NCBI RefSeq assembly: GCF_003704095.1
Contig: NW_020845755.1
Location: 248,001 to 312,000 of the forward strand
Direction: 5' to 3'
From: Pocillopora damicornis
Taxonomy: Eukaryota
Length of the DNA stretch: 64,000 bases
The notes under the pieces were generated by a model, which was given only the letters and a program-made list of their open reading frames with translations, searched no databases and was not told the DNA's origin. This document shows, piece by piece, positions 717 through 13,700 of the stretch (position 1 is its first letter; each line of letters begins with the position of its first letter). The translations under genes and the position numbers were made by a program.

Positions 717-3333
717 TTAAAGGAGTTTTATTGCTACATTTAGTGTCCAATTCTTTTAACCTATTGACATCTGATGCGCCCTCATGGGCCTGGAAACAAA
801 ACCCCTCTGAAATTTCAATGTGCCCACATGCACCCTGTCAGAAATGGCTTGTTTTGATTGGTTGTAGCTAAGAAACAAAACTCTCCTGGGTATTGGAAAG
901 AAGTGGAACATGAAATGCAAGACATAAGCTTTCATTTGAGACCAAACTCACTATTCCACATTCACTGTGCAATTTTTCACAAATTTTTCTTGGTCTTGGA
1001 CATGGCTTCTGGAAGAATTGATGAAAGTCAATTTGGCAAAATCTCTGCACACCCCCATACTTCATTATGCATCCATACATGGGGCTTTTTTATTCAGTGT
1101 ATCATTATTAAGATGTGCTTACATAAGGAAATATGGGGCTGTGCGGAAATTTTTCTGAAAATGCAAAAAAAACATCGCTGTACATCATGAAGTTGAGTCA
1201 GTTCTCTAGCTTTAGAATTTTTTTGAGAGAGCCTGATGCTCATGTTGAAAATAAAATTTGACAGAGAGAAAGTATATTATTTTACATGCAACTTTGTGAA
1301 GTTTCCCTTCAGTAGAGTAAATTGAAGACATTAAAATCTTAAATTATTTTGCCAGTGGTCTGTGTGTTCACTGTGGCAGCCATTTTCTCTGGAATTTCAA
1401 AACATGGAGCTGAGTCAAAGCTATTATGCCATCTTCCAATGTGCACAATGTACAACCATTTCCTGGACTTCATGTAGCTTTTTTCATTGTTTGAAAGTGA
1501 AATTTCAGAACAAGTGAGTTGGCAGGTAGCTACAGAAGAACCAAAGGAACATTTTTAAACATGCCAAGTGACATTATTTTACCATGAGCAGAGATGAAAA
1601 TCTCCAAAGAGAAAACAAAATGAACTGTTAAATTTCTGAAGGTTTTCACACACAGTCAGATTGTAAGCCTACATACATAGTTGAATGATGGTTAGTATTC
1701 AAACATGTGTGATGGTTGAAACTATCGTCAGCTGTCATGACTGTTTGAATGGGGCTTTATGAAAAATGATAAAAAGCCATGTACTAACTCTTGCTCTAAC
1801 CAAACAGTAAGCATAAGAACACAGTCTTCCTCGCTTTCTACAGGAAATGCAGCTTGCTTTTAATAAAACTTAAGACACTAAGTGTTCAATGGCTGTTTTT
1901 GATTCTCTCTTTTTGTTTAAGCCTTGGTGAGCACGTTTATGCCCTATGAATTTAAAACCTTTGTAAAAAAGTTCAGAATGTGATTTATCTGTGTTATTAA
2001 CACATGTGCAATTTTGATTTTAAAGTTTGATATCCAACTAGCATTGAGAGGAAAATATTTGATAATTTTAGTTCAGCATAAAGTTGCTTGAAAATTAAGT
2101 AGCTGACAATGTACTTCTATGCATAATGAATGTATGTAGAACATGCAAAACAAGCATAAAAAGGAAACTGTGAGTGAAAGAATGAATCTAACAAACTAAG
2201 ACTGCAGATGTGAAAAATAAAAAATGGTGAATACTCTAGTACTAAATTAAAAGTGACTATTATTTTCCATGGAATTTATTTATTTGTTCTGTAAATTTGA
2301 CTAGGAATTTGTAATTGTATTACACTCCTCAACCAACTGAAATAATTTTCATTTTGTTTGGAATTGCATTTATAAAATGCTAGAGTAAGCTTTGTGACAT
2401 TACTTTGCACTGAAATTTTAGCAGCTGGGTTGCGTACATATATTAACTATTTTTTCATTTGGCTTGGTTCACTGAATGTATTCGTTGATTTTTTGAATAT
2501 GTCATTGATTCATTGAATATATCAGTAATTACTGGTTCACAGAGTTTATTTATTATATGGACGTGAGTGTCTTATTAAGATTTAAAACACATATAGAATC
2601 AATATGACCATTACATCAGGGAACTGAATGATGTATTTTCCTATGTAACTTGAGTGACAATTATAGTTTTAAAGGAATTTCTCAAAAGTTGGGATGAGAT
2701 AAGGTGAATTTGTTCTGTTCGCGCTGAATAGCCTTCAAAGGTTTGTAGTGAAAAGAGCTTAAATAAAAGTATCTGTTGATTCAAGTCAGAGTCAGTAATC
2801 AAATTTTTATTATTTTAAGCTTATATTTTTGTCTAACTGATGGTGTTACATGTAAACCTTTGTATAATTTGGGCAGAGAGTCTTTTGTTTCTTTTAAAAC
2901 TTAGTATTTGTATACAGCCTGCTTTTCAATCCCTATTAGGTATATTTAACCACTATTGTTACTTTACTATCCATTTAATGAAAAGGAAATGACACCCTAA
3001 CTCAAAGATATGAATTTTATGTTCTTGTGGCACAAATAATATCTCACTCAGGACTGAGATATCATACATTGATTGACCAATTAAAAGTCTAATAATGCTT
3101 GGTTCTCTGTAAATTACATGGCCTAACATATCTTTTAATGTGCTTGCCATCTCTCTCTTTCTTGGGTAAGGTAGATTTTGTCTTAGACTTGGAAGGGATA
3201 AACAATGTGTATTATTGATGAAGCTCAGCTCCAAAATTTAGAGTATAAGCAAGTTGGCCCCTTTTCTTTAAATGCCCCCAAGCATCTTGTTTGTACAAGT
3301 ATGGTATGACTCTAATGGGCTAACTTTTACTAG

Positions 3334-7782: not shown

Positions 7783-10700
7783 TTAACTTGAGTATAGTCG
7801 TCTTCCAGGACTGCCACTAGGGCGTGGTGATAGTGAGCGGCCACGTTGAGCCAATGGAGAGCGCGAGTGGCGTCCTCTGGTGGCAGGTGAGTGTGACCTC
7901 CTTGGCGAACGTGACCTAGACCTACTGTTGAGAAACAAACACCTTGCTCAGTATAGCCTATAGTTCTGGGCCCAGCTGTTCAAAGGCCGATTAGCTCTAA
8001 CCCTGGGTTAAATTTTAATCCAGCTTTCTTTATTTCTTTGTTCGAAAGTCTCTTTGAGAAAATTTTCACTATTCTTTTAGAACATCCAATGATCAAATTG
8101 CAAGCAAAAGATTTGAACTGAATTTTCTCTTAAAATTTTCAGACCTGAAATTAAATTTCACACTAACCCTGGGTTACCTTAACCCAGCTTTGAACAACTG
8201 GGGCCTGAAGTTAAAGTGGGGGAGTAATGGACTTAATTTTCTAAAAGAAAGGACACAGTTTGAGTAACCATTTTGATAACAATGTGTTAGAACAACATGG
8301 TTGAGCATGTTTGTGAGAAAAGTTTAGCACTATCAAGCAAAATTGAGATAGCCAACCTTGTTCGGCGCCGTGGTGAGAGTGAGCGGGATCTTCGTGGTCG
8401 GTTTCTCTATGGTAAACAAATAATGGTAAATTACAAAATCAAGTTGCTCTCAAAGGTTGTTTATGCTCATCCAAAGAGTTGGACAGCCCCAGGACTAAGC
8501 CTTTAATACAGATTTTCCATAATTCAATACTATGACGACAAGGCAACAACAAAAATAAGAAAAATTTCAAGGATTAACCTTCAAAGGTCTCACATGTAGC
8601 AATTCATGTCTCCATATCAAGAGCATAGAACCTCAAAGCAAGCAAATTCCCCAATATAGTTTATAAATAAGCAGGAGTTTATTTACTAACCAATCATGCT
8701 CAGAAGCCTAGATGCACTTTTCCTAATTAAGGAATCAGAGCTACAGGCATTTTGCTTCAATAACACTAATGGCTGCTTTCTAATAAGCTGTGAAGAGGAG
8801 ACCTTTTAGGAAACCCACATAAAGAGAAGGGGAACGTGCACACTTCCAAAATCTCAGCATGGCTAGTTGCGTCACATTTCACATGACATGATCAATTCAA
8901 TGGCAGCAAATCTCTACACCAAAATTGTAAATCACTTCATAATTACCAAAATATGTACCACAGGTTAGCTAGATGATAAAACTTCAAGTCAAGTAAGTAC
9001 TTGCTAAAGATCTTGCCACAGCTCTAGTCTGAAGTTCCATCATTCAAATGTTTAAGGCATTATTCAAAAGTTAAGTAGCATAACTAATATTTAAGACTTG
9101 AACATGAATAGCTTTCAGGATTACTAACATACCTCTGTCAGCCTTATGCGCTTTCCCAGCAACTCAGTACCATCTAAACGTTTCAGTGCCCTTTGCATGT
9201 CATTAAGGCTGGCAAATTCAACAACCCTGAAATATATCAAACAAGTAATTATGTCAATATATGCCACTAATAAACCATTTTACAATATCATGCAATGGGA
9301 TGCATTAAATATGCAACAACATTACACTGAAGAGCAGGGCAAAAATGCTACAAAATGACCAAACAGTCACTGAACTTTGATTGGTTTTAGTCTTTTAGGG
9401 TTGACTTTTTAAGAAAGGAACTTCAATGCACATCATATTTTTTTTTGTTGGGCATAAAGAAGACTTTAAGGGTCTCTTATGTTATCATCTTTAGCCAGTG
9501 CCACCAATAATGCTTAGATAAGGTCAAAGGATTTAATGCAAAACTAGAAGCTAAAGTACAAGAAAATAAAAGAATAGTGGTATAATATATCCCTTATTCC
9601 ATGGTTTAACACACAATATGAGTGGACATCAAATAAAAACTGTCACACAAGTCAGTATTCCTGGACTAGTGCTTTTAAATACACTACAACAAATGATGCT
9701 AACCCCTCTCCTATTCTATCTCTATGGCACTGGGTAAAGGTCACTTCCCCTGCTTGGCGCATGTAATCTTTCAGATCCTGCAAAACAGCAAAGACATTAG
9801 TACAAAGTACAGTGAAGAGTACTTTTCTTTGCCTGTCCAAAGGAGATGACAAGTTTGTTTGATTGACTCTATAAAAAGACATTCATGATAAAATTGGGTA
9901 AAACAAGACTTCCAGCTAAATATGTAAAAAAAAATTAACCTAATAATTTACACTGTAGGTGCTGAGTGTGCAAACTGAAATGCAAGTTACACCTTTCAGT
10001 ACATTAGATGAATTACAAAAAAAAGCATCTTGTGAGTAACACAATACATTTTGACAAGGGCACTCATTTACACTAACAAATTAAATATTTCAAACCTTTG
10101 AGCTGTACAAAAAAATCCCTAAAGAACAGAGATACGAACCTTACCTTTGCAAAACTAACTATTAAGACCAAGAACTTCAAATTAAACCGAGATGATAACC
10201 AAGGCCTTCATGCCATACCAATTCCCATGTCAGCTTGTTAATGAGCCAAAAGGGTTGCCATGAGCAAACAGGGCCACTGAGCAACCAAGCAACCACACCA
10301 CGAATTGAATGATCTACACAATCTTAAGACGGCAAGCCAAGTGTCATATTTTATGCCAGGGCCACTAATTTTCCCCTTTTTACGCACAGACCAGGTCATA
10401 GATCAGGAATTGATTTCTGCCTAAAACCAAGCTCCCATAAAGTACCTTACCACTAAGTACTGTGGCTAAAGATGGAAGAAATGGAAGGAAGGAAGTTACT
10501 GATATGGTACTTAAGCCTACACCAGATTCAGAACTCTAAATAGACTGGACAGTCACTCTGACTGAACTGTGAAAGTTACCATACTTTCGTTTTTAAAACA
10601 ACACTCTTGCATGCTTGTTGGCGAAGACCAAGTATTTATCAGGCTATAGATCACGCTGATGATGCAGTAGCAAGCCACATTGGTATGGGCTACTACCTGT

Positions 10701-13700
10701 TGTAATTTGGCATTACTCTGGCAGTGTATTACATACTTCTGAGTCCAGGAATCAAGCATGAACTTCTACTTAATGATGTATTCAAAAGAAATTGACCAAG
10801 TTTATGAATGTACTGCTTATGAAACTTTGTTCTAACAAACAGTTGCACAAGGAAAAGCTAAAGGTAAAAATACTTGTTCACTTCAAGAATGAGGCCATAA
10901 CTCAATCACAAAATGAATGAGATTTCTATTTGCATTCTTTTTGATCAACTCTTTTTATCATTTTTGTTAACCCATTGGAAAACTTTTAACAATTTGGGAG
11001 GAAGACTTCCATGGCAGAAATTGAAAAAAAGTTTTGTTGACGGATATGCACAATTGGTCCCTGCTAGAAGAGCAACGTGCTTTTTTGAGACAAAACTAGA
11101 TCGCAAGTGCATTCATTGTAAACTCAGGCACTTAAAATAGTAAAATTTAGAAGTCTGACATACTTCACATTAAGAATTTCTTGTGCAAGTCAAATTTGCA
11201 AAATGAAAGGTACTGTATAGGTAAAGCAAAACAAATTGTGAGAACTTTCATCCTTTCATATTAGTGTTTTCACATGCTTTTTACAAATTCTTGAAGCCTT
11301 TATGTGAAACACTTTCTCTCATCATTGCATTTCTGAGCCTAAAAGGCAAGTTGTGAATAAGCCCAAATAACTTTAGCCTAGGCCTCTTCCTTAGCAGGAA
11401 AAACTGTTACAATCCAGGGTACAATTATTATCATTAACTTTATGTCTTTGCTTTAAGTGTTGCTGATGTGACATTTCTTGGAGAAAAACATACATAGTGG
11501 CAGATATGACCAGTTTTGAGACTTCCTTATTTTTCAGCTCAACTCCATCTATATTCACCAGAGTCTGGCCATTGACCTTTGCTTTCTCTGAAGAGGCCAT
11601 TGGGCTTGCAAAAAAAAAAAAAATTGAAAAACCAGGTAGAGTTCACGGACAACTGTTTAAGGAGCTGAGCTGTTTATATTTCCATATGCATATAACGTGA
11701 AGATCGCTGTTCTTTCATAAATTTATTCACCTTCTAGCTTAACCTTTTGTGAGGCCTACAGTAGCTATACAGTTTGTGCAACAGTAATAATAAAATAATG
11801 TTGAACATGAAATTCACAGCACAGCATTTTGGGACAACATCTGTGGATGAGTACGTGACTAGAAAGACATGCAGTAACTATAAATAATTACTTAACAAAG
11901 CACTGGCTGTTTGAGCAAGTCAGTTTTGCCCTTAGGTAAATTCCTTAAGCCATGTTTAGTAGGGTTGAAAAGTAATGAAAAAAACAACAATTTTGTCATT
12001 CATCACCAGTGAATCCTACAAAATTAAACAGGAATACATAAGGAAAAAGGATAAATTTATGAAGGAATAATGAACTTTCAAATGAATGGTAGAGCACACA
12101 AGATGTTACAGGTGATAATAAAATAATGTTCTTTTAGTTTAAGACATAACTGCTGCTTTGATCAGAACTTAAGTTTCACAGCAGCATGAAGTTGGCATTG
12201 CCATGTAACTTGAATCACCATTTAACTTGCATAGGGAAAATGAGTCACTAGAAAAGGTCTTGCTTTTAGTTCTAATTGTTTAATAAATTGTTTCCACAAG
12301 TTTCTACTGTTGTAAACAAACTTGCTAAGTAATTGACAGTCTTGTGTAATCATCTGCATGAGAATAATCCTGAAATGACTGTTGTTGGTGAAAACTAGCA
12401 AAAGTTGACTTCTACTCTAAGGAGGTCATCATCACAGGAAAGTGAACAGCTGTTTGAAGATAGAGTTTTGCCTGTTAGCTGGAAGACCCACAAGGCTCGT
12501 CAGATGTGATTGGTCAGTTTTGTCCGTTGGTAATTAAAATGTAACATCATGTTATCATATTTTGCACCTTCTGAAGTAGGTCTAACAATTTTGCATCTCC
12601 CTGATCTATGTCTAAAGGTTGAGGGTACTTGCATATTTGAAATATTTTCTTTTGCTTTAATTAGTATTAATAGTTCACACCAAGGAAGGCTTTGTAAACC
12701 CTTAATGAAGAGGTACAGTACTATCCTGGATACAAATAATGAGAATCAACCCTGTCTAGTATTTCTCACCTGCCAACTTGCACGTGAGGACAAATTTTCC
12801 ACTGTCAACTTGAATTCAGTGTTATAAGGTGCACCATATCTAAATAAATGTAGAATCTTAAAAATGGGTAGTCATGGACTACAGGTGGCTTCTAAATGAA
12901 ATAAAAATCGAAAATCACCATACAGAACTGGTCCTGCTTACTGGAATTAATAATGGAATATGACTTGGACCACTTACCACTGTGGCTACTCACATAAAGT
13001 AGTGACCATAATAACAACCACACGACTGTGAAAGGCAAAAAGAACACTAACGGTTATCTGTTCGAATGGGGAAACTGTTTGTTATCTGTTTGTCATCCAT
13101 TCGAATGCCTAAAAAAACAGTTCAAAGCATTCTGCAAACCATTCAAACATTTTGCATATCTGTTCGAAAATCATTAGCATCCATTCGAAGTATTATGACA
13201 TCTGTTTGAGCAGTTCTGACACCTGTTCAAATGGTTTCAACATCTGTTTGAATCGTTCACCAACTAGAAGTGTCTGTTTGGAGAACTGCAGCATCCATTC
13301 AAATGGTTTGATGTCTGTTCTGTTCATCCGTTCAGAAGGAGAAAATTAAACTTGTCATTTCTTTACAGATAATCAGTATAGCGGTTGAAACATTGCAATC
13401 CACATCTATGTGACTAAATTGTGAGACGAAAGATTAACTCAGCTGTCATTTTAAACCATGATGATAAAACAACTTTCATGAGATATTCAGTAGTTTCAGA
13501 CAATAACTAAAAACATTATTTCGATGAGAAATTGAAATAGTCTCCATTTTCGATCCTGAGAATAAAGGCCTTGAAATTCACAACAATGGCAAATGAAATG
13601 GAAACAATGCACAGCAACATTGCCCATTCCATGATTAAGCCATGCGCTCAGAATGGTTTCGCAAACTGATTAAGCAATTTATTCATCCAACCAGTCAAAC

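What the first reader, a model, noticed from the sequence alone, without database searches (positions are those of the whole stretch)
10145..10500. Candidate poison exon / alternative 3' splice site in the SR gene at the SWQ|DLKD intron
Seen (minus strand): inside the 3-kb intron 4 there is a strong acceptor, GTAACTTCCTTCCTTCCATTTCTTCCATCTTTAG| (AG at 10467-10466). It is followed in frame by [17 protein letters not shown] (stop 10423-10421) and a strong donor AAG|GTAAGG at 10145/10144, giving a 321-nt stop-containing cassette. Established: SR genes autoregulate via NMD-coupled splicing, and in SRSF5 the unproductive event lies in the intron splitting SWQ|DLKD. Inference: this is the cnidarian version of that ancient circuit. 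Unlike introns 1-3 and 7, this intron shows no transposon I could recognise, which hints at constraint.
Basis: partly seen in the sequence, partly recalled or inferred. Interest (0 to 1): 0.7.

Follow-up and report, generated by a model that had tools for sequence, protein, structure and literature searches.

The report
Coral SRSF5-like gene's conserved poison exon
A reef-coral splicing-factor gene splices in a hidden 321-base exon carrying an early stop signal, shared with other stony corals, which likely marks those messages for destruction so the gene limits its own output, a switch already described in people, flies and sea anemones.

Summary
Confirmed, but a known circuit. The gene is a Pocillopora SRSF5-like SR factor (spliced model equals RefSeq proteins). 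The 321-nt cassette (10465-10145, minus strand) is real. One RNA run shows both predicted joints at the exact bases, a second shows the upstream joint, and a DNA-like run shows none. Four other RNA runs hold the whole intron as one contig. In another stony-coral lineage only 10500-10115 of the intron aligns: 83% identity, against 65% at 4-fold sites and shuffle-level flanks, with both splice sites kept. Stylophora-like and Acropora-like transcript products carry the same exon after SWQ. The first stop moves between species, so the constraint is on RNA, not protein. Four junctions lie 276-494 nt downstream of the stop, so NMD is predicted. NMD and autoregulation are untested. Lareau and Brenner 2015 already reported this event in sea anemone, and this scan noted SRSF5 poison exons before in a cartilaginous fish. 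New detail: a UGG-rich exon conserved across stony corals. The 'no transposon' argument is weak: constraint is local.

The parts
10145..10465 (-). 321-nt poison cassette exon, UGG-rich
   Evidence: Joints at both ends in run X9 and a cassette contig 10144-10467; 83% identity (90% of aligned pairs) to L033/L040; TGG 18 vs 3.2 expected
10466..10500 (-). Conserved C/U-rich polypyrimidine tract and AG acceptor (AG 10467-10466)
   Evidence: conserved in L033/L040; joint 12770>10465 in X9 and X14
10421..10423 (-). First in-frame stop (TAG, codon 15 of the cassette)
   Evidence: the stop falls at codon 3 in L033/L040 and later in P0002 and P0010
10115..10144 (-). Cassette donor GTAAGG and about 30 nt of conserved flank
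   Evidence: Joint 10145>9777 in X9; conserved in L033/L040
10445..10451 (-). Internal donor-like site GTG|GTAAGG (would give a 15-nt in-frame micro-exon); use not shown here
   Evidence: Conserved in L033/L040; Acropora cervicornis model P0135 has a 5-residue insert there; no such joint in the 4 runs
9778..12769 (-). Intron 4 (equivalent of human SRSF5 intron 5), frequently retained in RNA contigs
   Evidence: Unbroken contig 9752-12798 in X1, X5, X6 and X8
12770..12839 (-). Exon 4, ends in SWQ
9704..9777 (-). Exon 5, starts DLKD
7783..20401 (-). Host gene: SRSF5-like SR protein, 8 coding exons (20401-20267, 15912-15842, 14535-14413, 12839-12770, 9777-9704, 9226-9133, 8406-8357, 7924/7921 onward), 252/251 aa; low coordinate approximate
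   Evidence: Spliced model equals P0121 and P0122; joints

Best explanation
The 321-nt block is an alternatively spliced poison exon in the SWQ|DLKD intron of a coral SRSF5-like gene; including it puts a stop 15 codons in, which likely sends the mRNA to nonsense-mediated decay and likely lets SR-protein activity throttle the gene's own output. Shown: both junctions are used, the intron is often retained, the stop is early, and the sequence is conserved across stony corals while the stop position is not. Inferred: (i) decay by NMD, because four junctions lie 276-494 nt past the stop; (ii) the conserved, strand-specific UGG-rich sequence and C/U tract are binding sites that set inclusion; (iii) the activator is this protein or a paralog, giving negative feedback, as reported for other SR genes; (iv) retained-intron RNA is a slowly spliced nuclear pool or a second unproductive form (stop after 7 codons).
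For:: in X9, joints 12770>10465 (contig depth 187.9), 10145>9777 (260.8) and the skip (197.4), with the cassette as its own contig (360.3). In X14, 12770>10465 (28.4) vs skip (107.2). X15 is flat at about 8 with no joints; of the 2992-nt intron only 10500-10115 aligns to L033/L040 (E about 1e-119); flanks and intron 5 are 46-50% identical against 47% for shuffles; third codon positions of exons 5-6 are 38 of 56 identical and 4-fold sites 13 of 20, so the cassette is better kept than synonymous sites. P0002 (132 of 132 to Stylophora over exons 1-4) and P0010 (137 of 137 to Acropora digitifera) continue after SWQ into this exon. Stops occur in all three frames in all three DNA copies. 0 of the 35 substitution sites listed in the intron fall in the cassette. 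Paper PMC4379411: same event in the same intron across animals, NMD confirmed in human, fly and Neurospora.
Against: No NMD-inhibition, nuclear/cytoplasmic or binding data for corals. The downstream joint was seen in 1 of the 4 runs and the upstream joint in 2 of 4. X1, X5, X6 and X8 show an unbroken intron contig with no cassette branch (contigs drop rare forms; 10 joint rows were not shown). In X9 the poison joints are as deep as the skip joint, more than efficient decay would predict unless NMD was weak in that sample or the RNA is nuclear; contig depth is a poor measure. Runs were found with this intron as query, which favours retention. In X8, intron 6 is as deep (108.9) as intron 4 (100.8). 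X8 carries an 8-nt deletion inside the cassette. L033 and L040 are one lineage, and their taxon was not identified.
Confidence: 0.85

Rival explanations
1. Detained-intron switch: the conserved block mainly slows splicing of intron 4 so that RNA is held in the nucleus and released or degraded there; cassette inclusion is a side route and NMD is secondary.
For: Whole-intron contig in 4 of 6 RNA runs. Its depth was 126, 98.7 and 88.8 in X1, X5 and X6, against about 7-42 for the listed contigs of other introns. X14 shows the upstream joint but the contig runs on through the donor. PMC4379411 notes that retention next to the exon is common.
Against: Both splice sites are conserved exactly and both are used in X9. 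Runs were selected for holding this intron. X8 retains intron 6 as much. Not exclusive of the best explanation.
Confidence: 0.3
2. The exon yields a functional truncated protein (147 aa: RRM1, glycine linker, no RS domain) acting as a dominant negative.
For: The tail peptides of P0002 and P0010 resemble the window's frame 0 for about 14 residues; inclusion appears high in X9.
Against: The tail is 14 residues here, 22 in P0002, 47 in P0010 and 2 in L033/L040, where a 4-nt and a 1-nt gap shift the frame. Conservation runs 280 nt past the stop.
Confidence: 0.05
3. The conserved block is an independent element (structured ncRNA or enhancer) and the splicing is incidental.
For: High nucleotide conservation over about 390 nt.
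Against: Conservation starts at the polypyrimidine tract and ends about 30 nt past the donor. Folding is no better than shuffles (z +1.24; 92 of 100 shuffles fold as well). Rfam was not searched.
Confidence: 0.03

Closest known systems
SRSF5 (SRp40) / Drosophila B52 intron-5 poison exon, unproductive splicing (Lareau and Brenner 2015, PMC4379411)
   Same: Same intron position, stop-containing cassette, flanking and whole-intron retention, strong sequence constraint on the exon without coding constraint.
   Different: NMD is not tested in coral. The coral gene is one of several cnidarian co-orthologs, not a one-to-one SRSF5 ortholog.
Nematostella SRSF5-like genes NV1, NV2, NV4, NV6 (supplement table S1 of PMC4379411)
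   Same: Cnidarian multi-paralog family with alternative-exon junction ESTs in this intron (NV1: 3 upstream, 4 downstream, 18 skipped); six anemone genes vs four intron-bearing plus one intronless copy found here.
   Different: Which NV gene is the ortholog was not determined; the paper text and the table I read give no coral data and no sequence description of the anemone exon.
SRSF4/SRSF6 intron-2 poison exons
   Same: Same logic of a conserved stop cassette.
   Different: Different intron; per PMC4379411 these genes lack the intron in question. The RefSeq label 'SRSF6-like' for this coral gene is therefore misleading.

Membership tests
SRSF5-type unproductive splicing (intron-5 poison exon) | Host gene is in the SRSF4/5/6 subfamily | tested here: met
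   Two RRMs and an RS tail; in a 25-row tree it groups with B52/SRSF4/5/6 apart from the SRSF1-like row (85/88 support, midpoint root), in a cnidarian clade with Rhopilema (100/99)
SRSF5-type unproductive splicing (intron-5 poison exon) | SRSF5-like gene structure with the intron at SWQ|DLKD | tested here: met
   the same acceptor position in the animal loci; fish SRSF5a isoforms also diverge right after SWQ. Numbering as human intron 5 rests on PMC4379411 and recall.
SRSF5-type unproductive splicing (intron-5 poison exon) | Alternative exon in that intron is spliced in | tested here: met
   Both joints in X9, upstream joint in X14, none in DNA-like X15
SRSF5-type unproductive splicing (intron-5 poison exon) | Premature stop well upstream of a later junction | tested here: met
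   Junctions 276, 350, 444 and 494 nt downstream of the stop
SRSF5-type unproductive splicing (intron-5 poison exon) | Exon sequence under non-coding constraint | tested here: met
   83% identity to L033/L040 with unalignable flanks and shifting stops
SRSF5-type unproductive splicing (intron-5 poison exon) | Isoform is stabilised when NMD is blocked | not testable with these tools
   No treated samples could be identified
SRSF5-type unproductive splicing (intron-5 poison exon) | Inclusion is driven by the SR protein itself or a relative | not testable with these tools
   Needs binding or perturbation data
SRSF5-type unproductive splicing (intron-5 poison exon) | Exon is homologous in sequence to the bilaterian SRSF5 exon | tested here: inconclusive
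   A profile of the three coral copies found nothing below E 0.97 in 101 other loci or 5 own-genome regions; many loci are short, and no human or urchin intron was held
Ultraconserved element (200 nt or more of perfect identity) | Long run of perfect identity across distant species | tested here: not met
   Longest identical run to L033 is 29 nt; the formal definition is for human and rodents

The most novel reading that the evidence does not exclude
The exon is a UGG-coded, pan-cnidarian regulatory module whose inclusion swings widely with conditions (contig depths range from no branch kept to parity with skipping) and acts as a temperature- or stress-responsive SR/CLK switch in reef corals, with paralogs cross-tuned by their own poison exons. 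A distant cnidarian ortholog (L057) has a UGG-dense island and a perfect donor at the same distance from exon 5 (372 vs 367 nt) without a significant alignment.
Probability: 0.15. Interest if true: 0.6.

Novelty: new member of a known kind. Interest (0 to 1): 0.3.

Why it matters
It confirms and maps to the base an ancient SR-gene feedback exon in reef corals, which the listed RefSeq protein isoforms do not show. It gives a compact conserved RNA element (about 390 nt, UGG-rich) for dissecting what sequence controls SRSF5-type poison exons, a point PMC4379411 calls undissected. SR poison exons respond to temperature in mammals and plants (PMC7726792, passages read), so the two junctions are a ready assay in coral heat-stress RNA-seq. 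The circuit itself is already published, also for a cnidarian.

Tried and rejected
RNA structure: no support. Deep sequence homology: none significant outside L033/L040. The L057 local alignment ends exactly donor-on-donor, but 32 of 300 shuffles score as well, and nhmmer restricted to that intron gives E 0.022 and 0.19, so it is a hint only. UGG islands are not general: 25 non-redundant introns were scanned and 8 had at most 3 of 200 shuffles reaching the observed peak (window, L033, L040, L057, L005, L038, L061, L072); the 3 coral paralogs did not. A protein search with the tail region of P0002 returned only itself (1 of 2 candidates). Coral loci L051 and L056 start just downstream of where the exon should be, and L085, L094 and L100 hold only 305 nt upstream, so they are uninformative; a search of their records was not possible, leaving the exon untested there. 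The 15-nt micro-exon joint was not seen. Inclusion levels (PSI) cannot be derived from contig depths. Literature: no paper held all of 'poison exon, cnidaria, SR protein' or 'Pocillopora, alternative splicing, nonsense-mediated'; two searches listed nothing on coral SR exons; the library lacks most subscription journals. One supplementary file of PMC4379411 could not be searched, and its figures were not seen.

Full report
Observation. The acceptor has the most pyrimidines of 183 AG sites in the intron but ranks 28th on a matrix trained on 71 animal exon-5 acceptors; the donor ties for best of 192 GT sites. The block is single-copy in the own genome, and the whole intron matched only itself (a search that skips very common words).

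Gene. Exon 1 is 100% identical to a Pocillopora damicornis protein. The eight-exon model translates to exactly P0121 (252 aa) or, with a 3-nt shifted last acceptor, P0122 (251 aa), both labelled SRSF6-like in RefSeq. The own genome has three further intron-bearing relatives with the same SWQ|DLK intron, one intronless relative and one SRSF1-like gene among 14 matches. In a 25-row tree the gene falls in a well-supported cnidarian clade with other stony corals, an unnamed protein like L057 and the jellyfish Rhopilema; its relation to the paralogs and to the bilaterian clade is unresolved. It is thus one of several SRSF5-like co-orthologs.

RNA evidence. Eighteen runs were listed; seven were laid, all as assembled contigs. 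In one search (4 runs, all 5 joint rows shown), X9 has 12770>10465 (depth 187.9), 10145>9777 (260.8) and the skip 12770>9777 (197.4), with the cassette as its own contig (360.3) between retained segments of 108.4 and 200.6. X9 is labelled 'probably DNA', but it has spliced joints at the constitutive exons. X14 has the upstream joint (28.4; skip 107.2), and its contig runs from 10467 through the donor to exon 5. X8 has only the skip and an unbroken intron contig. X15 is flat at about 8 with no joints and serves as the DNA control. In one search, X1, X5 and X6 hold intron 4 as one contig (126, 98.7, 88.8) deeper than the listed contigs of other introns (about 7-42); 10 joint rows were not shown there. 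Cautions: contig depth is not an inclusion level, contigs drop rare forms, runs were found with this intron as query, and in X8 intron 6 is retained as deeply as intron 4.

Conservation. A pattern for the exon-5 acceptor found 103 metagenome loci. Seven have the stony-coral exon-5 peptide, and two of these (L033, L040; one lineage, taxon not identified) reach the exon. Of the whole intron only 10500-10115 aligns (83%, E about 1e-119). Identity is 90% of aligned pairs, against 85% for exons 5-6 overall, 38 of 56 at third positions and 13 of 20 at 4-fold sites for L033; flanks and intron 5 are at shuffle level. Both splice sites and the pyrimidine tract are kept. Independently, two unnamed assembly-derived proteins continue from SWQ into this exon: P0002, identical over exons 1-4 to Stylophora pistillata, and P0010, identical to Acropora digitifera. 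The joint is therefore present in sequence assemblies of another pocilloporid genus and of an acroporid; that these two families belong to the two deep clades of stony corals is recalled, not tested. The first stop falls at codon 15 here, codon 3 in L033/L040, 23 in P0002 and 48 in P0010, so frame is not conserved. Within the Pocillopora-like runs 0 of 35 listed substitution sites in the intron fall in the cassette (about 4 expected; 16 rows were not shown, though piece counts give none for X9 and X14), while X8 has an 8-nt deletion in it.

Anatomy and mechanism. Inclusion gives a 147-aa product lacking most of RRM2 and the RS domain, with four junctions 276-494 nt past the stop; full retention stops after 7 codons. 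By the established exon-junction rule (recalled) both are NMD substrates. The cassette has 18 TGG against 3.2 expected from the rest of the intron, 2 of 500 dinucleotide shuffles reach that count, and the opposite strand is poor in it (TGG was the best of 64 trimers tested). It does not fold better than shuffles. I infer a linear protein-binding code that sets inclusion, and negative feedback by the SR protein or a paralog. These last steps are untested.

Known context. [quoted passage not shown] So the circuit, also in Cnidaria, is published. Searches for a coral description found none (open-access library only). PMC7726792 (12 passages seen) shows temperature-dependent SR poison-exon inclusion in mammals, flies and plants, which motivates the novel case but is not evidence for corals.

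Weak leads. L057, a more distant cnidarian ortholog with a complete 2640-nt intron, has a UGG-dense window (0 of 200 shuffles) just upstream of CAG|GTAAG 372 nt before exon 5, like the window's 367 nt, but its alignment to the cassette is not significant (32 of 300 shuffles). Two of three paralog introns contain a perfect internal donor where the background is 0.046 per kb.

Verdict. Real, spliced and conserved; a new, base-resolved member of a known kind. Interest 0.3.

Noticed in passing
window 10451/10450 (minus): Conserved internal donor-like site 15 nt into the cassette; an Acropora cervicornis gene model (P0135) has a 5-residue in-frame insert at this place, but in L033/L040 the piece would be 11 nt. 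No joint in the 4 runs.
   Followed up: partly
window 7924 and 7921 (minus): Tandem (NAGNAG) acceptor of the last exon explains RefSeq isoforms X1 and X2, which differ by one serine in the RS domain.
   Followed up: yes
L119 (G000:C1951) and L121 (G000:C1899), SWQ|DLK introns: Perfect CAG|GTAAG internal donors 383 and 639 nt before exon 5: candidate poison exons in two paralogs; none in L120. No reads were laid.
   Followed up: partly
L123 (G000:C406:14255-14917): Intronless, divergent two-RRM SRSF4/5/6-like gene, probably a retrocopy; it cannot carry the poison exon.
   Followed up: partly
L057 about 2500-3055: UGG-rich island ending in a perfect donor at nearly the same distance from exon 5 in a distant cnidarian ortholog; candidate homologous poison exon.
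   Followed up: partly
window 8407-9132 (intron 6) and 14536-15841 (intron 2): Intron 6 is covered as deeply as intron 4 in run X8, and a contig of X5 joins exon 1 to exon 2 and runs on into intron 2: other retained introns in some samples.
   Followed up: no
window 16140-18324 (intron 1): No cover in X5, X6 and X14 and very little in X1, while 18325-19635 attracts many repeat contigs; possibly a polymorphic insertion.
   Followed up: no
P0001, P0126: Public gene models that lack exon 2 (P0001) or replace exon 5 with other sequence (P0126) look like annotation errors for this gene.
   Followed up: no
L007/L053/L089, L021/L044, L027/L028/L034/L059, L029/L047/L060/L078/L095: Other animal groups show their own conserved blocks inside the same intron, likely their lineage-specific poison exons.
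   Followed up: no
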